From: Heptranchias perlo
Taxonomy: Eukaryota
Length of the DNA stretch: 64,000 nucleotides
Assembly: GCF_035084215.1 (NCBI RefSeq)
Contig: NC_090334.1
Span: 7,936,001-8,000,000 of the forward strand
Direction: 5' to 3'
Each line of letters begins with the position of its first letter. Position 1 is the stretch's first letter. The notes below the pieces were generated by a model, which was not told the DNA's origin, ran no database searches, and worked only from the letters and a program-made list of their open reading frames with translations. Of this stretch, positions 5,290 to 55,042 are shown piece by piece. Position numbers and translations under genes: made by a program.

Positions 5290-8200
5290 TTCAAGAACCA
5301 AAGGACTAGTGAGAGGGAGGAACTGAAGGAAACCAGTATTAATTTAAAAAAATAGTGCTCGGAAAATTAATGGGGCTAAAGGCTGACAAATCCCCAGGGC
5401 CTGATAATCTACATCCCAGAGTACTAAAGGAAGTGGCCCTGGAAATAGTGGATACATTGGTGATCATCTTCCAAAATTCTGGAACAGTTCCAACAGATTG
5501 GAGGGTGGCAAATGTAACCCCACTATTTAAAAAAGGAGGGAGAGAAAATACAGAGAATTACAGACCAGTTAGCCTAACATCAGTAGTGGGGAAAATGCTA
5601 GAGTCTATTATAAAAGGTGTGATAACAGAACACTTGAAAGGCATTAACGGGAATGGACAAAGTCAGCATGGGTTTATGAAAGGGAAATCATGCTTAACAA
5701 ATCTACCGGAGTTTTTTGAGGATGTAACTAGTAGAATAGATAGGGGAGAACCAGTGGATGTGGTGTATTTGGATTTTCAGAAGGCTTTTGATAAGATTTT
5801 TTTTTCAATCGTTCATGGGATGTGGGCGTCGCTGGCGAGGCCAGCATTCATTGCCCATCCTGAATTGCCCCTGAGAAGGTGGTGGTGAACCACCTTATTG
5901 AACCGCTGCGGTCTGTGTGGTGAAGGTTCTCCCACAGTGCTGTTCGGAAGGGAGTTCCAGGATTTTGACCCAGCGACGATGAAGTAACGGCGATATATTT
6001 CCAAGTCGAGATGGTGTGTGACTTGGAGGGGAACGTGCAGATGGTGTTCCCATGAGCCTGCTGCTCTTGTCCTTCTAGGTGGTAGAGGTCGCGGGTTTGG
6101 GAGATGCTGTCGAAGACGTCTTGGCGAGTTGCTGCAGTGCATCCTGTGGATGGTACACACTGCAGCCACAGTGCGCCAGTGGTGAAGGGAGTGAACGTTT
6201 AGGGTGGGTGGATGGGGTGCCAATCAAGCGGGCTGCTTTGTCCTGGATGGTGTCGAGCTTCTTGAGTGTTGTTGGAGCTGCACTCATACAGGCAAGTGGA
6301 GAGTATTCCATCACACTCCTGACTTGTGCCTTGAAGATGGTGGAAAGGCGTTGGGGAATCAGGAGATGAGTCACTCACTGCAGTATACCCAGCCTCTGAC
6401 CTGCTCTTGTAGCCACAGTATTTATATGGCTGGTCCAGTTAAGTTTCTGGTCAATGGCGACCCCAGGATGTTGATGGTGGGGGATTCGGTGATGGTCATG
6501 CCATTGAATGTCAAGGGGAGGTGGTTAGACTCTCTCTTGTTAGAGATGGTCATTGCCTGGCACTTGTGTGGCCCGAATGTTACTTACACTTATCAGCCCA
6601 AGCCTGGATGTTGTCCACGTCTTGCTGCATGCGGGCTTGGACTGCTTCATTATCTGAGGGGAAGGTCATTGATGAAGCAGCTGAAGATGGTTGGGCCTAG
6701 GACACTGCCCTGAGGAACTCCTGCAGCAATGTCCTGGGACAGAGATGATTGACCTCCAACAACCACTACCATCTTCCTTCGTGCTAGGTATGACTCCAGC
6801 CACTGGATAGTTTTCCCCCTGATTCCAATTGACTTCAATTTTTCTAGGGGGTCCTTGGTGCCACACTCGATCAAATGCTGCCTTGATGTCAAGGGCAGTC
6901 ACTCTCCCCTCACCTCTGGAATTCAGCTCTTTTGTCCATGTTTGGACCAAGGCTGTAATGAGGTCTGGAGCCGAGTGGTCCTGGCGGAACCCAAACTGAG
7001 CAGGTAATTAGTAAGTGCCGCTTGATAGCACTGTCGCTGACACCTTCCATCACTTTGCTGGTGATTGAGAGTAGACTGATGGGGCAGTAATTGGCCGGAT
7101 TGGATTTGTCCTGCTTTTTGTGGACAGAACATACCTGGGCAATTTTCCACATTGTTGGGTAGATGCCAGTGTTGTGGCTGTACTGAAACAGCTCGGCTAG
7201 AGGCGCAGCTAGTTCTGGAGCACAAGTCTTCAGCACCAGAGCCAGGATGTTGGCAGGGCCCATAGCCTTTGCTGTATCCAGTGCAGTCAGCCATTTCTTG
7301 ATATCACGTGGAATGAATCGAATTGGCTGAAGACTGGCTTCTGTGATGGTGGGGTTATTGGGAGGAGGCTGAGATGGATCATCCACTCTGGCTGAAGATG
7401 GTTGCAAATGCTTCAGCCTTGTCTTTTGCACTAATGTGCTGGACACCACCATCATTGAAGATGGGGATGTTGACAGAGCCTCCTCCTCCCGTTAGTTGTT
7501 TAATTATCCACCACCAATCACGACTGGATGTGGCAGGACTGCAGAGCTTTGATCTGATCCATTGGTTGTGGAATCGCTTAGCTCTGTCTATAGCATGTTG
7601 CTTCCGCTTTTTAGCATGCATGTAGTCCTGAGTTGTAGCTTCACCAGGTTGGCACCTCATTTTTAGGTACGCCTGGTACTGCTCCTGGCATGCTCTTCTA
7701 CACTCCTCATTGAACCAGGGTTGATCCCCTGGCTTGTTGGTAATGGTAGAGTGAAGAATATGCTGGGCCATGAAGTTACAGATTGTGCTGGAATACAATT
7801 CTGCTGCTGCTGATAACCCACAGCACCTCATGGATGCCCAGTTTTGAGCTGCTCGATCTGTTCTGAATCTATCTCATTTAGCACGATGGTAGTGCCACAC
7901 AACACGTTGTATGGTATCCTCAGTGCGAAGACGGGACTTCGTCTCCACCAGGACTGTGCGGTGGTCATTTCTACCAATACTGTCATGGATAGATGCATTT
8001 GCGACAGGTAGATTGGTGAGGACGAGGTCAAGTAAGTTTTTCCCTCGTGTTGGTTCGCTCACCACCTGCCACAGGCCCAGTCTGGCAGCTATGTCCTTCA
8101 GGACTCAGTCAGTAGTGGTGCTACCGAGCCACTCTTGGTGATGGACATTGAAGTCCCCCACCCAGAGTACATTCTGTGCCCTTGCTACCCTCAGTGCTTC

Positions 8201-36057: not shown

Positions 36058-37623
36058 TTATGCTGGTGATACTATCCCGCGGTACTTGTCCCTCAGTCTG
36101 ACCAACACGGTGAAGGACACCGGTTTGATGGTCAGCCCATAAGAACAGTCCATGCTCAGTTCTTCTGAAGGATTCGCCTCAAAGATGCATTGGTGGACTA
36201 GGATCGCCGTGAAGAGGAATATCTGGAGTTTGGACAGCTGCTCGCCGATACATCTCCTCTTGCCCACCGAGAAGATCATCACACTGCTCGTCAAGTCCCT
36301 GTTGATGCTCCCGTCCTCATTCAGGAACCTGGTCGGGTCAAATGTCCCGGGGTCCTTCCACTTGTGTTGGTCGTGGTTGACAGACCACTGGTTGATGAAG
36401 ACCACCGTGTCTTTGGGGATGTGGTAGCCGTTGATGTCCACATGGGAAGTGGTGGCATGGGGGATGGTCATTGGGACGAAGCTGGTGAATCTCATGATCT
36501 CGTAGATAAAAGCATCGAGATAAGGCAGGCGGGCTTTGTCCTCGGCTCCAGGGAGCCTCTCCCTGCCCACCACCTTGTCAATGTCCTCCTGGAGTTTGGT
36601 CTGGAGGTGCGGGTATTGGATCAGGTGGAAAAGGATCCAGTTCAGGGCTGTGGACGTGGTGTCCTGGCCGGCTCCCAGGATGTCGGTGACCGACCCTTCA
36701 ACGTGTTCCTTGGTGAGCCCATCCTCGTCCACCTTCCCATGCTCTATCACATCTATGAAGGCGTCGCTCATGTCCCTGGTGGTACCGGCTTGGAAGGTCT
36801 CCCGGTGTTGGACGATCTTGCTGCTGACAAACTCGAAGAACTCGCGGTTGAGCTCTTTAAAGTCCTGGTAGACGCTCCTGACGGGGTTGGGGAAAGCCTG
36901 GAGCCAGGGCATGGCGTCCACCAGGCTGCCGGCTCCCACCGTCTGGCCGAACTTGTCGTTCCTGCCCAGGAGCTTCTTGAACTCCAGGTCATCGTGGCTG
37001 TAGCGCCGGCCGAAGCACAGGGCGCACATGACATTGGCCGTGGCCACGGTCAGCTCCTGGGACGGCTCGAAGTGGCGGCCGTTTGCCCCCAACATCAGGA
37101 AGACCTGGATCAGGTCGCAAGCCTCGCCCACCACATGCTGCTCGAAGAGCCGCTTGGTCTGGGTGTTGGCCGTGGAGAAAGCCCGGACGGTGGAGTGGGC
37201 CAGGCGCCGGTGGACCTTCCATTGGCTGCTGTACCTGCCGAAAGCCATGCTCTTGCCTCCCGACACCAGGCGGAAGGAGGCGAAGTTAGGTCGGCCGGCG
37301 AACTGGACGTTGTGTTTGAGCAGAGCCTTCCTGATGGTGGCCTCCCCGTTCAGCACCACGATGTCGTGGAGACCCAGGCGGATCTGGAAGAGGTCGCCGT
37401 AGCGCCGGGCCATCTTCGTGAAGGTCAGGTGGGGCGAGCTGCCCAACTGCATGGCATTGCCCACCAGCGGCCAAGGGAAGGGGCCCGGGAGTGTCCTCGG
37501 CCCCCGCCTCCAGTGCCTCAGCCATCTACAGGCTTCCAGGCAGACGAGGAGGACCAAGGAGAGCAGCAAAGCGGGCTGCACCTGGAGCCTCCATTCCTCA
37601 GCCAGTCCCAGCACAGGATCCAT
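36058..37623 (-). CDS. CYP1C1: Cytochrome P450 family 1 subfamily C, intronless CDS, 521 aa (MDPVLG...VSPA)
   Basis: N-terminal hydrophobic anchor, LPGPFPWPLVGN, I-helix GAGQDT (1C-type, versus GASQDT in 1B1), EIMR (ExxR), FDPTRF, heme FSVGKRRCIG. The track ORF starts at a GTG (37725); the first in-frame ATG is at 37623. No stops or frameshifts; CpG-rich. Confidence 0.93.
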   Translation of the reverse strand: MDPVLGLAEEWRLQVQPALLLSLVLLVCLEACRWLRHWRRGPRTLPGPFPWPLVGNAMQLGSSPHLTFTKMARRYGDLFQIRLGLHDIVVLNGEATIRKALLKHNVQFAGRPNFASFRLVSGGKSMAFGRYSSQWKVHRRLAHSTVRAFSTANTQTKRLFEQHVVGEACDLIQVFLMLGANGRHFEPSQELTVATANVMCALCFGRRYSHDDLEFKKLLGRNDKFGQTVGAGSLVDAMPWLQAFPNPVRSVYQDFKELNREFFEFVSSKIVQHRETFQAGTTRDMSDAFIDVIEHGKVDEDGLTKEHVEGSVTDILGAGQDTTSTALNWILFHLIQYPHLQTKLQEDIDKVVGRERLPGAEDKARLPYLDAFIYEIMRFTSFVPMTIPHATTSHVDINGYHIPKDTVVFINQWSVNHDQHKWKDPGTFDPTRFLNEDGSINRDLTSSVMIFSVGKRRCIGEQLSKLQIFLFTAILVHQCIFEANPSEELSMDCSYGLTIKPVSFTVLVRLRDKYRGIVSPA

Positions 37624-38069
37624 GGGTTCGGGTTCAGGGGAGGGTCCCAGGGCTGGCTGGAGATCAGCTTCTTGGTGCAGGTCCTCTGCTGGGCTCTCAC
37701 TCTCTTGCAAATGTCTCGATCTCACCTTGTCTCAGTCTCTTGCTCAAATCTCAAACTCTTTTACACACCGACCTGCAGCTCCAGGTCCTCTGGAACGCTT
37801 TGGAGACGATTGCCCAGTCTCTGCACTTCTTCCCTGACTCTGATCCTTTCTTTATGGGAATATTATAGTTGTTTTCCACTCATTTGCTCCCTTTTCCCTT
37901 CTTGTTTTGCTGCTGTTTCGATCTTTTTGCAGAATTCTCTGTTGTCCCTGCGGCTGTTGCAGGGGCCGGCTTGCCTTGAGCTGGAAGGACTCTCCCCGGG
38001 TCAGGTCCCTCTCCCCGAGCCGGTCAGTGCTCCGCTCCGAGCCGCTCTGGATTCCGTCTGGGCTTTTTC

Positions 38070-43689: not shown

Positions 43690-44585
43690 AAACTTGGAAG
43701 GGTAGTAAACAGTGAGGAGGATAGTGATAGATTTCAAGAGGATATAGACAGGCTGGTGGAATGGGCGGACATGTGGCAGATGAAATTCAACACAGAAAAG
43801 TGTGAAGTGATACATTTCAGTAGGAAGAACGAGGAGAGGCAATATAAACTAGAGGGTACAATTCTAAAAGGGGTGCAGGAACAGAGGGATTTTGGGGTAT
43901 ATGTGCACAAATTGTTGAAGGTGGTAGGGCAGGTTGAGAAAACGGTTAAGTAAGCATATGGGGACCTGGGCTTTATAAATAGAGGCATAGAGTACAAAAG
44001 TAAGGAAGTCATGATGAACCTTTATAAAACATTGGTTCGGCCACAACTGGAGTATTGTGTCCAGTTCTGGGCTCCGCACTTTAGGAAAGATGTGAAGGCC
44101 TTAGAGAGGGTGCAGAAGAGATTTACTAGAATGATTCCAGAGATGAGGGACTTCAGTTACGTGGATAGACTGGAGAAGCTGGGTTTGTTCTCCTTAGAGC
44201 AGAGAAGGTTAAGAGGGGATTTGATAGAGGTATTCAAAATCATGAAGGGTCTGGACAGGGTAGATAGAGAGAAACTGTTCCCATTGGTGGAAGTCAAGAA
44301 CCAGAGGACGTAGATTTAAGATGATTGACAAAAGAACCAAAGGCGAGATGATGATAAATTGTTTTACACAGCGAGTGGTTAGGATCTGGAATGCACTGCC
44401 TGAGGGGGTGGTGGAGGCAGATTCAATCATGGCTTTCAAAAGGGAACTGGATAAGTACTTGAAGGGAAAAAATTTGCAAGGCTATGGCGATAGTGCGGGG
44501 GAGTGGGACTAGCTGGATTGCCGGCATGGACTTGGTGGGCCGAATGGCCTCCTTCCGTGCTGTAACCTTTCTACGATTCTATGAT
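43690..44585 (+). mobile_element. CR1 3' portion
   Basis: WADMWQMKFNTEKCEVIHF, YKTLVRPQLEYCVQFWAPHF, IWNALP, tail. Confidence 0.94.
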
Positions 44586-44696
44586 TTGCAAGTTTAAGGC
44601 CTGGATTTTCCTTTATTTTTAACAGTGTTTTGCCCCTGTAAGAAGGTATTAAATCTGGTGTGTTTCAGATGGACGTGTGTGAGACAAGTAAAAGGA

Positions 44697-45170
44697 GAAA
44701 GAACTTGCATTTATATAGCACCTTTCACATTCTCAGGACGTCCCAAAGCAATTCACAGCCAACAAAATACTTTTGAAGTGTAGTTGCTGTTGTTATGCAG
44801 ACAAACACAGCAGCCAATTTGAACAAAGAAAGGTCTCACAAACAGCAACGAGATAAATAACTAGATCATCAGTTTTAGTGATGTTGGTTGAGGGATAAAG
44901 GTTTGCCAGGACACTGGGAGAACTCCACTGTACTTATTTGAATAGTGCCGTGAGATCTTTTACATTCACCTGAGAGGATAGACTTAAACTTAGAATTAAA
45001 CTCAATTTAACACCTAATCCGAAAGACAGCACCTCCGACAGTGCAGCACTCCCTCAGCATTACTGAAGTGTCCACCTAGATTATGTGCTCAAGTCTCTGG
45101 AGTGGGACTTGAACCCAAGAACTGCTAATTCAGAGACAAGGATGCTACCCGCTGAGTCAAGGCTGACACT
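44697..45170 (-). mobile_element. DeuSINE (SacSINE1-like), full length
   Basis: Tail gaacttgcatttatatagc through head gggacttgaaccc...ctgagtcaaggctgacac. Confidence 0.88.
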
Positions 45171-45700
45171 TCAGTTACATGTAGATAGAAGGTGTTGAAA
45201 AAATAATTGGGGGAACTGTCTTCAAGGACTTAATATCTTGAACCATATCGAACAGTGAGAGAATTGAATGATAGTTTATGCCTGAGAGCATGGGTCTAAT
45301 GGCCATTGGCAGAGATATCACAGTGCAGCAAGAGGGAAAAGGATAGCAGAGAGCACAGGAGCAATTAGGCAGTGGATGTCCCATAACACAGTCACCAAAG
45401 GGTAAAGCAAGAGGTTCAAGATCACGAGGAAGGCGGTGACTGAGGTGCGGCAGTTGGTACCCATGTGCCATGCAGTACCACCGGCAGTGAAGATTATTTA
45501 ACTGCTGTGCCACAAGGCTCTTACAGGAACACAAAAGGGTATCACAATAAACTGCCCCTTCGTTTGGCTTTTGGATGCCTGACACTTATTTTTCAACACA
45601 ATCAAAGAATAACAACTTATCAAGATTGACCTGCATCAGTGCTGAGTCCTTCTTTGCTCGAGTCTCTGTGGGCTCCGTGCTTTTGGGGATAACCTGTTCT

Positions 45701-45710
45701 TTGCGTGAGA
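45701..45710 (+). promoter_or_regulatory. Consensus AHR/ARNT response element (XRE/DRE)
   Basis: TTGCGTGAGA, ~7.6 kb upstream of the CYP1C promoter; function untested. Confidence 0.35.
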
Positions 45711-45800
45711 TACTTCAAAAGATTATGTGTGAGGTGATTGGGCGTTGGCACTGATTAAAACTGGACGCTCAGGAATTGTGAGTTACTGCGATTTTGTTAC

Positions 45801-46004
45801 TGTTACGTTCGAATAACTGCTATAATTACTGTGTTAATAACTAACTGCCTTTATTTCCAGACCCGCTAGAATATTCTGCCAAAGAATAATAAATTAATAT
45901 GAGGAGTGTAATTGCTACTCCCATCGGGGGGGGGCATCTAGTGTTCAGTTAATAATATGCCCACACCATACATATCACCTTTAACCCTCCCCCGCAATAC
46001 AACA
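45801..46004 (-). mobile_element. Candidate 3' LTR of the Gypsy relic
   Basis: On -, purine-rich gggagtgggagg is followed directly by TGTTGTA...; AATAAA at 45850-45855; ends ...GTAACA. No partner LTR found. Confidence 0.4.
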
Positions 46005-46319
46005 CCTCCCACTCCCACCCCCACTCCCACCCCCACTCCCACCCCCACTCCCACCCCCACCCCCACTCCCACTCCCCACTCCCACCCCCACTCCCACCTC
46101 CACTCCNNNNNNNNNNNNNNNNNNNNNNNNNNNNNNNNNNNNNNNNNNNNNNNNNNNNNNNNNNNNNNNNNNNNNNNNNNNNNNNNNNNNNNNNNNNNNN
46201 NNNNNNNNNNNNNNNNNNNNNNNNNNNNNNNNNNNNNNNNNNNNNNNNNNNNNNNNNNNNNNNNNNNNNNNNNNNNNNNNNNNNNNNNNNNNNNNNNNNN
46301 NNNNNNNNNNNNNNNNNNN
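46005..46319. other. (CCCACT/CCCACC)n simple repeat followed by an assembly gap (N 46107-46319)
   Basis: Read directly from the sequence. Confidence 0.95.
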
Positions 46320-46409
46320 CCCTCAGAATTACTGGGTGAAGATAATCATTTCCAAGAATGAGCCTGGGTAACAGCTAAAAAAATCATTCAGTAAAGACAT
46401 TCAGCAACT

Positions 46410-46725
46410 ACATAAAATCATAGAATCTTACAGCTCAGTAGGAGGCCATTTGTCTATCCAATTAGTCCCATCCCCCCTGCTCTGTCCCTGCAAATTTTCT
46501 CCTCTTCAAGTATTTATCCAATTCCCTTTTGAAAGTTATTATTGAATCTGTTTCCACCACCCTTTCAGGCTGTGCATTCCAGGTCATCACAACTCACTAC
46601 GTGAAAAAATTTCTCAACCCACAGGTTCTTTTGCCAATGACCTTAAATCTGTGTCCTCTGATTACCGAGCCTCCTGCAGTGGAAACAGTTTCTCCGCATC
46701 TTCTCTATCAAAACCTCTCATGATT
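46410..46725 (-). mobile_element. CR1 3' fragment
   Basis: Reverse complement of the CR1 3' end. Confidence 0.85.
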
Positions 46726-46872
46726 TTTATTATTATTATGAATATTATCATTATTCAACATCTTCCGCTGACATGATCAAAAAAATAACCATAGCGCTCT
46801 CCCAGTCGCACACAGGAAAGATGGGTTTTGCCAACACTAGAATCTTAATGAAAATCACTACACTCTAACTAT

Positions 46873-47097
46873 CTGTAAGTCGAAATGATTTGGAGGCTTC
46901 CTTGACTTTTGACGATATCTTGGAGTAGGACTGACAATGGGCGAGGTGGGATTAATAACAGGAGCAGTAAATGGGACCACCTCAGGTTCGGTTTCAACAC
47001 TGCCAGGGTTCACAACATTCACAGAGACGCTACTGGAGAGTTCACAATATCCTGGGAGGTAGTTGGTTCCTTACACGTGGGAATAGGCAAAACATCT
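46873..47097 (-). mobile_element. Gypsy pol C-terminal tail, decayed
   Basis: P/T/S/V-rich linker ending PTPRYRQKSRKPPNHFDL, like the RYPxRxRKPPxRLDL end of Gypsy pol proteins. Confidence 0.65.
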
Positions 47098-47487
47098 TTT
47101 TAAAAGGTTAAGGGGAGATTTAATAGAGGTGTTCAAAATCATGAAGGCTTTTGATAGGGTAATTAGGGTGAAACTGTTTCCACTGGTAGGAGGGTCGGTA
47201 ACCAAAGGACACAGATTTAAGGTCATTGGCAAAAGAGCCAGAGGTGAGATGAGGACAATTTTATTTACGTAGAGAGTTGTGATGATCTGGAATGCACTGC
47301 CCAACAGGACGGTGGAAGCAGATTCAATAGTAACTTTCAAAAGGGAATTGGATAAATACTTGTCAAGGAAAAATTTGCAGGGCTATGGGGAAAGAGTAGG
47401 GGAGTGGGGTTAATTGGTAGCTCTTTCAGAGAGCCGGCACAGGCACGATGGGCTGAATGGTCTCTTTCTGTGCTGTAAGATTTTATG
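47098..47487 (+). mobile_element. CR1 3' fragment inserted in the Gypsy relic
   Basis: RLRGDLIEVFKIMK..IWNALP; ATCT duplicated at 47094-47097 and 47488-47491. Confidence 0.92.
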
Positions 47488-47511
47488 ATCTAAACCATTC
47501 TGAGGAGCTGG

Positions 47512-47982
47512 TAACCGTTACTTCCTGAGTATCAATTGTCAACTCCTGAACCTGCTTCTTTAACTGATGAAACATGTGGTATGAGCTTGTTGAGGGTGTT
47601 TCTCACTCTTTGAAACAGTTCCCGTGTTTTTTTGGATTTTAGGATCAGGAACTTGTGACCGCCTTCCGAAATCTGCGTAGGTTGGCATGAAGTCTGGGCC
47701 CCTGAACAGCATTGGTGAGGGGTCCAAAGGTCTTGTCATTAGTTTGGTCTGGTTCACCTGGTCAAGAACTAGAGCGCTGATTTCTGGCAAACCATTTGGT
47801 TTCTGGATACTGTCGGGAATGAACTGGAACCTAAGGAGAAATTCCCGGTCATGTCACTTCTTGCCCTCTGGATTGAACAATTTCCACTGTTCTTTTTTGA
47901 AGCCACAAACCAGACTCTCTTTGCTATTGGTTTTAGTGCTTTCACTTTCAGAAATGGTTTCCAAACCATTCTGTTCAGGTTC
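47512..47982 (-). pseudogene. EIF4G3: Intronless, disabled EIF4G3-like (EIF4G1/3 family) fragment
   Basis: Reads EPEQNGLETISESE...[70 protein letters not shown], then with frameshifts [38 protein letters not shown]. This matches the eIF4E-binding YDREFLL region and the start of MIF4G. Confidence 0.9.
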
Positions 47983-48570
47983 TACCACGGGTACAATTGG
48001 GCTTGCCCAGTCATAGAATAGAATCATTGTATCATAGAATGATACAGCACAGAAGGAGGCCATTTGGCCCATCGTGCCTGTGCCAGTTCTTTGAAAGAGC
48101 TATCCAGTTAGTCCCACTCCTCCTGCTCTTTCCCCATTGCCCTGCAAATTTTCCCCTTCAAGTATTTATCCAATTCCCTTTTGAAAGTTATTATTGAATC
48201 TGCTTCCACCGCCCTTTCAGGCAGTGCATTCCAGGTCATCACAACTCACTGCATAAAAAAATTCTCCTCATTTTCCCCTGGTTCTTTTTCCAATTATTTT
48301 AAATCTGTGTCCTCTGGTTAGCGACCCTCCTGCCAGTAGAAGCAGTTTCACCCTATCTACTCTATCAAAACTCGTCATAGTCACTGTGGTTGATTTTTTC
48401 AATTATCCTCTGACACTCCATGTGATCTTATTCACTGATATCCATTCCTGGGCTTAAACAAGTTTGGCTTCAGTCCCTCCTTCACATTAAAGTGAACTTG
48501 GACACCCTTTGTTGTACCAAGTTTCAGACTTGAAAACTATGCTGAAGAATCACTGCAAGAGAAGATTTTG
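47980..48570 (-). mobile_element. Gypsy pol fragment (RT N-terminus) split by CR1
   Basis: Removing the CR1 restores VFKSE/LGTTKGVQVHFNVKEGLKPNLFKPR../IIEKINHSD-WASPIVPVVEPE. Confidence 0.82.
48014..48378 (-). mobile_element. CR1 3' fragment inserted in the Gypsy RT
   Basis: Reverse-complement CR1 tail; AGTCA duplicated at 48009-48013 and 48379-48383. Confidence 0.92.
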
Positions 48571-48589
48571 AAAGGAATTGTTAGGAATA

Positions 48590-48920
48590 GTTAGAGACAA
48601 ACTTTTTTCACTGATGGGGGAATCTAGGACAAGGGAACATAACCTTAAAATCAGAGTCAGGCCATTTAGGAGAGAAGTTAAGAAACACTTCTTCATGCAA
48701 AGGGTGGTAGAAATGTGGAACACTCTCCCACAAAAAGCAGTAGGTGCTAGTTCAATTAATAATTTTAAATCTGAGATTGACAGATTTTTTTTGCTAGCCA
48801 AGGGCATTAAAGGATATGGAGCCAAGGCGGGTAGATGGAGTTAGGATACAGATCAGCCATGATCTCATTGAATGGCGGAACAGGCTCGAGGGGCTGAATA
48901 GCCTCCTCCTGTTCCTATGT
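48590..48920 (+). mobile_element. CR1 3' fragment
   Basis: KLFSLMGESRTREHNLKIRVRPFRREVKKHFFMQRVVEMWNTLP; gttcctatg tail. Confidence 0.92.
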
Positions 48921-48934
48921 AATCATTTCTGTAC

Positions 48935-49210
48935 AGAGAGGGGAGTCTCTCCATCAGGGTCCCTTTTAAAGTGGGGAGTCTCTCCACAGGGTCCATTTTA
49001 AAGAGGGGAGTCTCTCCATCAGGGTCCCTATTAAAGAGGGGAGTCTCTCCATCAGGGTCCCTATTAAAGAGGGGAGTCTCTCCATCAGGGTCCCTATTAA
49101 AGAGGGGAGTCTCTCCATCAGGGTCCCTATTAAAGAGGGGAGTCTCTCCATCAGGGTCCATTTTAAAGAGGGGAGTCTCTCCATCAGGGTCCCTATTAAA
49201 GAAGGGAGTC
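48935..49210. repeat. 33-bp minisatellite, about 8 copies
   Basis: Unit agaggggagtctctccatcagggtccctattaa. Confidence 0.95.
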
Positions 49211-49704
49211 ACAATCTGAATCCTTTTTTGAAGGCTATCTCTATTGTAAATCTTTGTAATTATTGACTTTTAAATGGAAGTAGCACCTGTGGGTATTTTC
49301 CCTGCCTCTCCGCGGGGAAGCAGCTAACCTGTGCCCAGCCGCACTGACAGAGATGGAGAGCTCAGGACCAGCACCAGTTTGAGAATCAGAGCGAGCTCCT
49401 GGACCAGCAACTCGTTCCCAATCAATGGGCTGAAACCGAGGGAATCCCCTGTTGTTCTGTGGGACAGCACCACCATGTGGTGAGAGGTGGGTTCACAGCC
49501 GGGATTCCGACAGGGTGAATTCTGGGTACTCCCCGGGGTACCAGGGAGGTCCTGATAGAAAAGAAATCACTGGTTGGAGCGCAGGAGGCGGGAATTGGAC
49601 CCGGCCTCCTGTCAAACAGCTATTTCTTTTTGCAAATTTGGACATTTTAAATTGCAAATCCTTACATTCTTATGCTGATGTTAACAGAGAGTGCTGCCCA
49701 CTCT

Positions 49705-50593
49705 CTCAGCCCGACCCCTCCTGCTCTCTCTCTGACCCCTCAGTAACCCAAACCCATCCCCTCCTGCTGTCCGTGACCCTCGGTAACCCCAATAACCCCG
49801 TCTGTTCTCTCTGTGACCCCTCAGTAACCCCAGTAGCCCCTGCTGCTCTCTCTCTGACCCCTTGGTAACCCCAGTAACCCCGCCTGCTCTCTCTGTGACC
49901 CCTCAGTAACCCCTTCTGCACTCTCTGTGACCCCTCAGTAACCCAGTAACCCCGCCTGCTCTCTCTGTGACCCCTCAGTAACCCCAGTAACCCGCCTGCT
50001 CTCTCTGTGACCCCTCAGTAACCCCTCCTGCTTGCTCTGTGACCCCTCGGTAACCCCAGTAACCCCTCCTGCTCTCTCTGTGACCCCTCGGTAACCCCAG
50101 TAACCCCTCCTGCTCTCTCTGTGACCCCTCAGTAACCCCTTCTGCACTCTCTGTGACCCCTCAGTAACCCAGTAACCCCTGCTGCTCTCTCTGTGACCCC
50201 TTGGTAACCCCAGTGACCCCTCCTGCTCTCTCTGTGACCCCTCAGTAACCCCAGTAACCCCTGCTGCTCTCTCTGTGACCCCTCAGTAACCCCAGTAACC
50301 CCTGCTGCTCTCTCTCTGACCCCTTGGTAACCCCAGTAACCCCGCCTGCTCTCTCTGTGACCCCTCAGTAACCCCAGTAACCCGCCTGCTCTCTCTGTGA
50401 CCCCTCAGTAACCCCTCCTGCTTGCTCTGTGACCCCTCGGTAACCCCAGTAACCCCTCCTGCTCTCTCTGTGACCCCCTCGGTAACCCCAGTAACCCCTC
50501 CTGCTCTCTCTGTGACCCCTCGGTAACCCCAGTAACCCCTCCTGCTCTCTCTGTGACCCCTCGGTAACCCCAGTAACCCCTGCTGCTCTCTCT
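49705..50593. repeat. C-rich minisatellite with mixed ~30/39-bp units
   Basis: ctctctgtgacccctcagtaacccc(agtaacccc)tcctg variants. Confidence 0.95.
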
Positions 50594-52385: not shown

Positions 52386-52910
52386 AACAATCTGCTATTT
52401 TAAAATATGTAGTGATGTCGGCCACAGCCAGCTCCCTTCCGAATGATCGCAGCGAATCCGCACTCACTACACCAGCTGGCAGCTTGTTCCATCGATCGAC
52501 TGGGAGAGCCCTGGAAACTTCTCAACAAATGGGCTAACTCTCCATTCAATGGAGAGATGAATTTGATATGAACATATGAAGCATTGGTACAATAATAATA
52601 TTACACAGTGTAATTTTCAGGCTGATTGTAACTAACTTTCATCCTCAACTTTCATCAACAAAATGCTCCTTTCATTTTTCTTTTTACATAGAATTTATAG
52701 CACAGAAACAGGCCATTCGGTCCAACTGGTTTATGCCGGTACTTCCCCTGAAATGCACTATGCTATTCGCCTCAACTACTCCATGTGGTAGCGAGTTCCA
52801 CATTTTAAGTTTGACTTTTACCTGGATTATATTGCTGAAAAAAATTTGTGAAAAGTTTCTAAGGACTGTAAGAAAAAGAGACTGTAAATGAAAAGCCCTT
52901 CATATTCTAT

Positions 52911-53424
52911 ACAATGTAGTGTGTCCATCACTCCCCGTTCTCAATGTAGTGTGTACGTCACTCCCCGTTCTCAATGTAGTGTGTACGTCACTCCCCGTTC
53001 TCAATGTAGTGTGTACGTCACTCCCCGTTCTCAATGTAGTGTGTACGTCACTCCCAGTTCTCAATGTAGTGTGTACGTCACTCCCCGTTCTCAATGTAGT
53101 GTGTACGTCACTCCCCGTTCTCAATGTAGTGTGTACGTCACTCCCCGTTCTCAATGTAGTGTGTACGTCACTCCCCGTTCTCAATGTAGTGTGTACGTCA
53201 CTCCCAGTTCTCAATGTAGTGTGTACGTCACTCCCCGTTCTCAATGTAGTGTGTACGTCACTCCCCGTTCTCAATGTAGTGTGTACGTCACTCCCCGTTC
53301 TCAATGTAGTGTGTACGTCACTCCCCGTTCTCAATGTAGTGTGTACGTCACTCCCCGTTCTCAATGTAGTGTGTACATCACTCCCAGTTCCCAATGTAGT
53401 GTGTACGTCACTCCCCGTTCTCAA
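52911..53424. repeat. Highly homogeneous 30-bp minisatellite, about 17 copies
   Basis: Unit caatgtagtgtgtacgtcactccccgttct. Confidence 0.98.
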
Positions 53425-53667
53425 ATTGTCATTTTGTGCCTATGGTGAATTGCCCCAAAACTGCCTCCTGTATTTAGAAACATGCCTGGAGATTGTTACT
53501 TTTTGTCAGACTTCCCAGTAATTGATTCTATTCCCTGCACAAATCATGCCCTAAGCAAAGTTAAGCAGCTCCCGTGCCTCGATTCGTCTCAACTCCCATA
53601 TTTCTTTTCTGAGCGACTGTAGGAATCCCAGTGTAGAGTCTCGTTCAGTGTGAGCACACAGCAAAAA

Positions 53668-54620
53668 ATCAGGAGCGGAGAATCAGGAGAGGAGGATCGG
53701 GAGCGGAGGATCGGGAGTGGAGAATCAGGAGCGGAGAATCAGGATCAGGAGCGGAGGATCGGGAGCGGAGGATCAGGAGCGGAGAATGAGGAGCGGAGGA
53801 TCCGGAGCGGAGGATCAGGAGTGGAGGATCAGGATCAGGAGCGGAGGATCGGGAGCGGAGGATCAGGAGAGGAGGATCAGGAGCGGAGGATCAGGAGCGG
53901 AGAATCAGGAGCAGAGGATCCGGAGCGGAGGATCGGGAGCGGAGGATCAGGAGCAGAACGGGAGTGGAGAATCAGGAGAGGAGGATCAGGAGCGGAGAAT
54001 CAGGAGCGGAGAATCAGGAGCGGAGAATCAGGAGCGGAGGATCAGGAGCGGAGGATCAGGAGAGGAGGATCAGGAGCGGAGAATCAGGAGCAGAACGGGA
54101 GTGGAGAATCAGGAGAGGAGGATCAGGAGCGGAGGATCAGGAGCAGAACGGGAGTGGAGAATCAGGAGAGGAGGATCAGGATCAGGAGCGGAGGATCGGG
54201 AGCGGAGGATCAGGAGCGGAGGATCGGGAGCGGAGGATCGGGAGCGGAGGATCGGGAGCGGAGGATCAGGATCAGGAGCGGAGGATCAGGAGCGGAGGAT
54301 CGGGATCAGGAGCGGAGGATCAGGAGCGGAGGATCAGGATCAGGAGCGGAGGATCGGGAGCGGAGGATCGGGATCAGGAGCGGAGGATCGGGAGCGGAGG
54401 ATCGGGATCAGGAGCGGAGGATCGGGATCGGGAGCGGAGGATCGGGAGCGGAGGATCAGGATCAGGAGCGGAGGATCGGGAGCGGAGGATCCGGAGCGGA
54501 GGATCAGGAGCGGAGGATCAGGATCAGGAGCGGAGGATCGGGAGCGGAGGATCCGGAGCGGAGGATCCGGAGCGGAGGATCAGGATCGGGAGCGGAGGAT
54601 CCGGAGCGGAGGATCAGGAT
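53668..54620. repeat. Purine/G-rich low-complexity satellite built on ~14-bp ggagcggaggatca units
   Basis: Read directly; ORFs in all three + frames are repeat translations. Confidence 0.97.
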
Positions 54621-54691
54621 CTCTGCAAACTGTGTGCGGTGACCTCTGAGCCAGATTCTCTTAAGCCAAATTTAACCCTGTATTCCACTAG

Positions 54692-55042
54692 AACTTGAGC
54701 ACAAAATCCAGGCAGCCACTTCAATGCAAGGACTAAGGGAGTTCTGCACTGTCGGAGGTGCCGTCTTTCGGATGAGACATTAAACCAAGGCCCCGTCTGC
54801 CCTCCCACGGCAATATTCGAAGAAGAGCAGGGGAGATCTCCCCGGTGTACTGGACAATTTCAACCAATATAACTGAAACAGATTATCTGGTTATTATCAC
54901 ATTGCTGTTTGTTGGATCTTGCTGTGCGCAAATTGGCTGCCGTATTTCCTACATTACAACAGTGACTACACTTCAAAAAGTACTCCATTGGTTAGTAAAG
55001 TGCTTTGGGACGTCTTGAGGTTGTGAAAGGGATGACAGAAAT
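54692..55042 (+). mobile_element. DeuSINE (SacSINE1-like), 5'-truncated
   Basis: Family body and tail. Confidence 0.85.

What the first reader, a model, noticed from the sequence alone, without database searches (positions are those of the whole stretch)
45801..48570. Gypsy retrotransposon relic carrying a captured EIF4G3-like mRNA segment in place of its RT/RNaseH/integrase core
Seen: excising two CR1 insertions, each with a short duplication (AGTCA, ATCT), leaves a minus-strand reading of Gypsy RT start (LGTTKGVQVHFNVKEGLKP..IIEKINHSDWASPIVPVVEPE), then ~470 bp of eIF4G sequence ([49 protein letters not shown]), then a Gypsy-like pol end (RYRQKSRKPPNHFDL) and a candidate PPT/LTR. The RT-to-eIF4G join is in frame. 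Known: YDREFLL is the YxxxxL-phi eIF4E-binding motif, and LTR elements can capture host mRNA by template switching. Inference: this is a chimeric non-autonomous element that once encoded a pol-eIF4G fusion bearing the cap-complex docking motif. Whether it was amplified or affected translation is unknown. This copy is dead (stop, Y>H change, frameshifts).
Basis: partly seen in the sequence, partly recalled or inferred. Interest (0 to 1): 0.8.

Follow-up and report, generated by a model that had tools for sequence, protein, structure and literature searches.

The report
Retrotransposon family carrying captured EIF4G3
This is a dead copy of a jumping-gene family in a cartilaginous fish whose copying enzymes were replaced, in frame, by a spliced piece of the host translation-factor gene EIF4G3 including its cap-complex docking motif; the hybrid spread to at least 50 places, likely using the enzymes of its intact parent, and whether the docking motif helped it is untested.

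Summary
Confirmed and extended. The window holds the 3' two-thirds of a decayed Ty3/Gypsy element in which most of pol is replaced by about 450 bp of spliced EIF4G3 mRNA (parts of five exons, four introns absent). It is not a one-off: 50 of 51 loci examined carry the captured exons, most with the same junctions, several with paired LTRs, gag and protease. An RT/RNase H/integrase-bearing parent family of the same age shares LTR, gag, protease and tail. One longer copy (L130) preserves an earlier stage, so the capture was trimmed twice; all four junctions keep the frame, and all show short microhomologies. A second species holds the chimera. Copies decayed neutrally (omega 0.87) and the tree is a star, so selection on the eIF4E-binding motif can be neither shown nor excluded. 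The mechanism is known (LTR-mediated retroposition). This scan noted similar shark/ray Gypsy captures of other genes on other DNA (unchecked notes), one of them 4E-T. No paper on an eIF4G capture appeared in my search listings.

The parts
48379..48530 (-). Gypsy RT N-terminal stub, first part (5'-truncated; small internal deletion)
   Evidence: 67-69% identity to un-interrupted copies L031/L037; those copies hit Gypsy polyproteins P0121/P0123 here
48014..48378 (-). CR1-type LINE 3' fragment, later insertion, 5-bp duplication (AGTCA on +)
   Evidence: absent from other copies; 7 hits within the window; CR1 label from recalled ORF2-end and tail motifs
47980..48013 (-). RT stub, second part (WASPIVPVVE), up to the 5' chimeric junction
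   Evidence: RT-bearing parent copies continue into RT core at this point
47528..47979 (-). captured spliced EIF4G3 mRNA: end of exon A, exons B and C, end of exon D, start of exon E; in-frame internal deletion across C/D
   Evidence: 81-86% identity to four host exon pieces (the D remnant was not hit in this copy); host exons lie 2.5-7.6 kb apart
47833..47853 (-). YxxxxL-phi eIF4E-binding motif position, here HDREFLL behind a stop codon (broken in this copy)
   Evidence: PF21140 hit E 1.5e-5, below its cut-off, in copy L025
47488..47527 (-). 3' chimeric junction and start of the Gypsy pol C-terminal tail
47098..47487 (+). CR1-type LINE 3' fragment, later insertion in opposite orientation, 4-bp duplication (ATCT on +)
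46771..47097 (-). rest of pol tail (ends RYRQKSRKPPNHFDL at about 46872) and 3' untranslated part
   Evidence: 71-73% identity to copies; shared with RT-bearing parents
   Evidence: absent from other copies; similar to the other two inserts
45978..46413 (-). 3' untranslated end and polypurine tract, split by an N run (46107-46319) and a G-rich microsatellite
   Evidence: 46320-46413 is 83-86% identical to copies, where a short G/A run precedes the LTR
45801..45977 (-). 3' LTR, TG...CA
   Evidence: matches both LTRs of L031 and L037

Best explanation
This is a decayed member of a non-autonomous Ty3/Gypsy family in which RT core, RNase H and integrase are replaced in frame by spliced EIF4G3 mRNA, likely through microhomology-guided template switching inside the particle, and which was likely copied in trans by its co-active intact parent with the EIF4G3 piece riding mainly as cargo. 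Shown: spliced origin, shared junctions, at least 50 dispersed loci, LTR pairs, gag-zinc knuckle-protease retained, parent family of equal age, one longer earlier form. Inferred order: (1) double switch parent-mRNA-parent replaced RNase H and integrase (form kept in L130); (2) a deletion removed the RT core; (3) a second deletion removed about 145 nt of exons C/D, giving the common 2.9-kb form. Inferred: an unbroken reading frame was favoured (stable, translated RNA supplying Gag in cis), but binding of eIF4E was not what drove the spread. All copies then decayed neutrally, roughly 100-250 million years ago by a borrowed clock.
For: Exon joins exact: B|C 39 of 42, A|B 30 of 44, D|E 20 of 31 copies. 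Same 5' junction spacing in 28 of 37 and 3' junction in 24 of 26. Microhomologies of 4-10 nt at the junctions, read by eye. Parent copies with RT, RNase H, integrase remnants; chimera and parent unsorted on a star tree and differing at 6 of 2304 columns at p<0.01. Variation among copies neutral: class-matched omega 0.87, stop-creating transitions as frequent as silent ones; motif intact in 16 of 37 copies, no better kept than its neighbours. Same anatomy described by Tan et al. 2016 (PMC5131818, passages).
Against: Four junctions all keep the frame, while random shared 4-6-mers are in phase only 18-37% of the time: about 1 in 27 to 1 in 81 by chance, and Gag-protease would not need read-through into the captured part. 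Both deletions spare the 4E-binding exon. The twice-trimmed form outnumbers the two other forms (one copy each) and is of the same order as the parent. Neutral decay after insertion says nothing about the active master copy.
Confidence: 0.62

Rival explanations
1. The captured motif gave the element an edge. The single polyprotein Gag-zinc knuckle-protease-RT stub-EIF4G3 piece-tail would carry the bipartite eIF4E-binding region but lack nearly all of the MIF4G domain and the PABP site, so it would act like a 4E-BP or, held on element RNA by the zinc knuckle, would grip eIF4E on the cap and tip the RNA from translation towards packaging.
For: All four junctions in frame; stop-free stretches in different natural copies overlap in one phase from zinc knuckle to the pol stop; the captured region covers the whole eIF4G1 peptide stretch matched in PDB 5t46_B; none of the fixed element-versus-host residue differences falls on Y, L or phi positions except one CpG artefact inside the motif region; copy number of the order of the parent's.
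Against: No purifying selection measurable: host-versus-column dS 0.17 is mostly explained by the host branch, and 6 non-CpG residue differences lie on the element side. Star tree leaves little time for selection. Unchecked scan notes list captures of unrelated genes (RABEP1, RBM25, SUDS3, CLIP1) that also amplified, so a 4E motif is not needed.
Confidence: 0.24
2. The capture happened in another host lineage (or from a since-lost EIF4G3 copy) and chimera and parent entered or burst in this lineage together; the in-frame state and residue differences were inherited from that earlier history.
For: Gypsy parts of chimera and parent are almost identical by column, yet the captured part has 6 non-CpG residue differences from the host, two shared with chimaera, coelacanth and primate but with none of six shark/ray proteins.
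Against: Element and host share residues that the six other shark/ray proteins lack (by eye); host silent divergence about equals copy divergence; the two ancestral-looking residues are single transitions and may be convergent or reflect capture before the shark-ray split.
Confidence: 0.1
3. One-off processed pseudogene inserted into a Gypsy relic, or copies made by segmental duplication.
For: None found.
Against: EIF4G3 replaces rather than interrupts pol; flanks of different copies share nothing beyond the LTRs; LTR pairs and a few target-site duplications; copies on more than 20 contigs.
Confidence: 0.01

Closest known systems
LTR-mediated retrocopies / pseudo-LTR retrotransposons of animals (Tan et al. 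2016, PMC5131818; passages seen)
   Same: Part of the internal ORF replaced by spliced mRNA; microsimilarity at switch points (median 6 bp there); both LTRs kept; further rounds of retroposition.
   Different: In the passages seen, multi-site cases are two young Drosophila retrocopies; here at least 50 old copies, an earlier stage preserved, two later in-frame deletions, and fusion in frame to gag-protease.
CrocERV29 (KIT-ligand) and CrocERV31 (nectin3) gene captures (PMC4299795; passages seen)
   Same: Old vertebrate LTR elements that captured host mRNA and were copied (nine and six copies).
   Different: Those are retroviruses with whole captured ORFs under purifying selection; here a Gypsy element, a fragment fused into pol, no selection detectable.
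Maize Bs1 (as described in PMC5131818 passage)
   Same: LTR element carrying pieces of host genes and amplified.
   Different: Plant element with three genes' fragments; not compared by sequence here.
4E-BPs and eIF4G bipartite eIF4E-binding region (PMC6061780; passages seen)
   Same: The captured part holds the canonical YX4L-phi motif and the following linker/non-canonical stretch without the rest of eIF4G, as a 4E-BP does.
   Different: No binding or repression shown; all examined copies are broken; not a 4E-BP homologue.

Membership tests
Ty3/Gypsy LTR retrotransposon (parent family) | domain order gag-protease-RT-RNase H-integrase | tested here: met
   parent copy L132 hits P0121/P0123 in that order; those proteins carry the Pfam domains
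Ty3/Gypsy LTR retrotransposon (parent family) | paired LTRs with TG...CA ends and polypurine tract | tested here: met
Ty3/Gypsy LTR retrotransposon (parent family) | target-site duplication | tested here: inconclusive
   5-6 bp duplication seen by eye in 3 of 14 pairs printed (L039, L006, L094); old copies
Ty3/Gypsy LTR retrotransposon (parent family) | tRNA primer-binding site | not tested
   a TGG-starting site follows the 5' LTR in several copies; not matched to a host tRNA
Mag-like clade of Ty3/Gypsy | RT phylogeny with clade references | not tested
   label recalled from gag and pol-end motifs; nearest intact relatives are unnamed
LTR-mediated retrocopy (chimeric non-autonomous element) | captured part is spliced mRNA | tested here: met
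   four introns absent, joins exact
LTR-mediated retrocopy (chimeric non-autonomous element) | internal ORF replaced, not interrupted; microhomology at switch points | tested here: met
LTR-mediated retrocopy (chimeric non-autonomous element) | further retroposition as a unit | tested here: met
   50 loci, shared junctions, unrelated flanks
Functionally retained captured gene (as CrocERV KIT-ligand) | purifying selection or intact ORFs in copies | tested here: inconclusive
   omega 0.87 after insertion, no intact copy among those examined, no internal branches to test
eIF4E-binding protein (4E-BP-like action) | binds eIF4E and competes with eIF4G | not testable with these tools
   motif present by descent only

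The most novel reading that the evidence does not exclude
A vertebrate retrotransposon turned a stolen piece of eIF4G into a working part: a Gag-protease polyprotein ending in an eIF4E-binding module that gripped the cap complex, was trimmed twice in frame around that module, and let an enzyme-less parasite match its autonomous parent in copy number. If the 4E-T capture noted elsewhere in this scan holds, shark Gypsy elements recruited YxxxxL-phi motifs twice.
Probability: 0.22. Interest if true: 0.85.

Novelty: new member of a known kind. Interest (0 to 1): 0.52.

Why it matters
It is an unusually complete fossil record of gene capture by a vertebrate Gypsy element: donor gene, intact-type parent, early chimera and trimmed successors all lie in one genome. 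It shows that host coding fragments can be amplified about 50-fold in this way and offers a countable test (frame retention, cargo identity across chondrichthyan captures) of whether such cargo is selected. If the eIF4E-binding motif was used, it would be a retrotransposon-encoded translation-factor decoy, for which my searches showed no precedent.

Tried and rejected
Protein searches for an annotated or intact chimera: RT-EIF4G3 junction, longer proteins (host eIF4G proteins only among the 120 listed of 1083); protease-RT-EIF4G3 stretch (3 plain Gypsy proteins); EIF4G3-tail stretch, near lengths (none of 137 candidates) - weak negatives. One search covered an intron by a coordinate mistake and tells nothing. 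Sequencing runs: no RNA holder listed on record; low-depth contigs in guessed-RNA runs may be DNA, so expression is not shown. Runs X13, X15, X17, X20, X21 gave no listed piece bridging a junction at 80% likeness; old copies can fall below that, so no absence is claimed. Other cargo in this Gypsy family: 14 further tail-bearing loci were parent-type or truncated, none with a shared foreign insert. EIF4G1 as donor rejected (70-76% versus 81-92% for EIF4G3). Exon skipping as cause of the C/D deletion rejected: breakpoints lie inside exons. Rfam: no match in 44000-50000. No complex prediction was run: a near-host eIF4G peptide would pass by likeness to solved structures.

Full report
Observation. 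Window 47638-47853 matches human eIF4G1 chains in the PDB, including the short chain 5t46_B (E 4.8e-10). A junction-spanning stretch of copy L025 finds chondrichthyan EIF4G3 as best full relatives. The window copy is 5'-truncated, carries three CR1-type inserts rather than two, and ends in a 177-bp LTR at 45977-45801. The nearest gene seen is a single-ORF cytochrome P450 family 1 gene about 8 kb away.

Family. A search of the own genome with 47510-48020 gave 41 matches at 40 places, 72-81% identical apart from the window itself (75 candidates, 40 scored); a second copy as query gave a largely overlapping list. Of 51 candidate loci gathered, 50 hold EIF4G3 exon pieces; this is a lower bound. 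Fuller copies are about 2.9 kb: LTR, gag, zinc knuckle, protease, RT stub, EIF4G3, pol tail, purine tract, LTR. Coverage by other copies drops to zero outside the LTRs in the six loci plotted. Nine chimeric LTR pairs with at least 119 aligned bases differ by K2P 0.16-0.33; two pairs with short alignments were left out; three parent pairs gave 0.10, 0.11, 0.21. A 5-6 bp target duplication was visible by eye in 3 of 14 pairs.

Donor. The host EIF4G3 gene lies at G000:C35 (duplicate on C160), EIF4G1 at C13. Nine copies inspected match five EIF4G3 exons mostly at 81-92% and EIF4G1 at 70-76%. The exons are 7.6, 5.0, 5.8 and 2.5 kb apart in the gene, and the copies join them as spliced mRNA would: modal spacing in 30 of 44 (A|B), 39 of 42 (B|C) and 20 of 31 (D|E). 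Between C and D about 145 nt are missing; of 32 copies with both sides, 20 show +3, 6 show 0 or -3, and 6 differ (two later insertions, L130, three small indels).

Parent. Copies in which RT runs on past the junction exist (33 matches of 33 candidates); remnants of RT, RNase H and integrase in Gypsy order are seen in L132, L124, L136 and others. On the shared protease-RT stretch 29 chimeric and 12 parent rows form a star with no sorting (bootstrap not settled, rows under 430 bases left out). Across 2304 columns of LTR, gag, protease-RT and tail only 6 differ between the groups at Fisher p<0.01, and divergence from the column's commonest letter is 0.12-0.15 versus 0.13-0.16. The chimera therefore spread in the same burst as its parent, which is the likely source of RT and integrase (inference).

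Steps of the capture. L130 keeps the whole RT up to a K-V-E motif, starts EIF4G3 near the start of exon A, keeps most of exon D, and has the common 3' junction; it shares most diagnostic letters with the main family. L022/L160 has the common 5' junction, keeps the 5' part of exon D and ends in parent-type integrase tail, likely a recombinant. Genome searches with the parts lost from the main form found only these two copies besides the host gene. Shared letters at junctions, read by eye: about 10 nt at the L130 junction, 5-7 nt at the common 5' junction, 6 of 7 at the 3' junction, and about 4 nt, less certain, at the internal deletion. All four keep the codon phase: 28 of 37 copies at the 5' junction, 24 of 26 at the 3' junction. 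Against this, L130 has its own 31-nt out-of-frame deletion in C/D, probably later. Stop-free stretches of different natural copies overlap in one phase from zinc knuckle to the pol stop; the upstream part of gag was not checked in this way.

Selection. Over 158 codons, 41 copies differ from the column yardstick by 10.8% and from the host by 15.2%; class-matched omega among copies is 0.87 and stop-creating transitions are as frequent as silent ones. The YxxxxL-phi motif survives in 16 of 37 copies. Host versus yardstick: 15 silent and 13 replacement codons; 4 replacements fall on the host branch, 1 is unresolved, 8 on the element side, of which 2 are CpG artefacts. Host silent divergence about equals copy divergence, so capture came shortly before the burst and there is almost no stem on which to see selection. 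The 6 remaining differences are unexplained; two are the residue found in chimaera, coelacanth and primate but in none of six shark/ray proteins.

Age and spread. With whale-zebra shark dS 0.06-0.11 over about 50 My (PMC13100897, passages), copy divergence gives roughly 100-250 My; this is a borrowed clock. In run X9 (organism B, a relative by EIF4G3 words) one 632-nt contig bridges the RT-EIF4G3 junction with more than 80 letters on the RT side and appears to lack the exon D part; run X5 (organism A) has a short bridging contig; run X13 (organism C) holds a tail piece only. Whether these are RNA is a guess of the tool.

What is known. Tan et al. 2016 describe this anatomy and mechanism across animals (PMC5131818, 12 of 33 passages). 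Crocodilian ERVs captured KIT-ligand and nectin3 and kept them under purifying selection (PMC4299795, 12 of 15 passages). The bipartite eIF4E-binding mode and 4E-BP competition are from PMC6061780 (12 of 55 passages). Searches listed no paper on an eIF4G-carrying retrotransposon; I saw titles and abstract starts only, subscription journals and repeat databases were not searched, and supplements of Tan et al. were not read. Earlier notes of this scan report Gypsy captures of RABEP1, RBM25, SUDS3, 4E-T, CLIP1 and KMT2D in other genomes, several called shark or ray; I could not check them. None matched this sequence.

Verdict. A real, amplified chimeric Gypsy family with an unusually clear history; a new member of a known kind. 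Passenger cargo in a frame-preserving element 0.62, working eIF4E-binding module 0.24, capture in another lineage 0.10. Interest 0.52.

Noticed in passing
window 36058-37731 (-): Single 557-codon open frame of a cytochrome P450 family 1 gene (best PDB match CYP1B1, E 6e-198); intronless, as recalled for fish CYP1C genes. The element lies about 8 kb upstream.
   Followed up: partly
run X9 record 27 laid on L037:2929-3445: A 1244-nt contig of organism B at depth 162 (host EIF4G3 contig 111) derived from this family's gag and LTR; could be an abundant transcript of a deleted copy or a co-opted gag piece.
   Followed up: no
L097 (G000:C4:19.91 Mb): A cargo-free deletion form that appears to join the same RT VKP site directly to the integrase end, suggesting this site is a switch hotspot.
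   Followed up: no
G000:C160:17000-42000: Small contig duplicating the EIF4G3 exons of C35 at 100%; probably an unmerged haplotype.
   Followed up: no
host EIF4G3 exons B and C versus proteins: The host keeps two residues shared with chimaera or coelacanth where the sampled rays and galeomorph sharks share a derived state.
   Followed up: no
window 48937-49200, 49700-50500, 52890-54700: Several minisatellites (33-bp unit beside the element's 5' break; G-rich arrays) that give long repetitive open frames.
   Followed up: no
L095 oriented 5430-7427: A 666-codon stop-free stretch inside a 4-kb insertion in a chimeric copy, probably a younger LINE.
   Followed up: no
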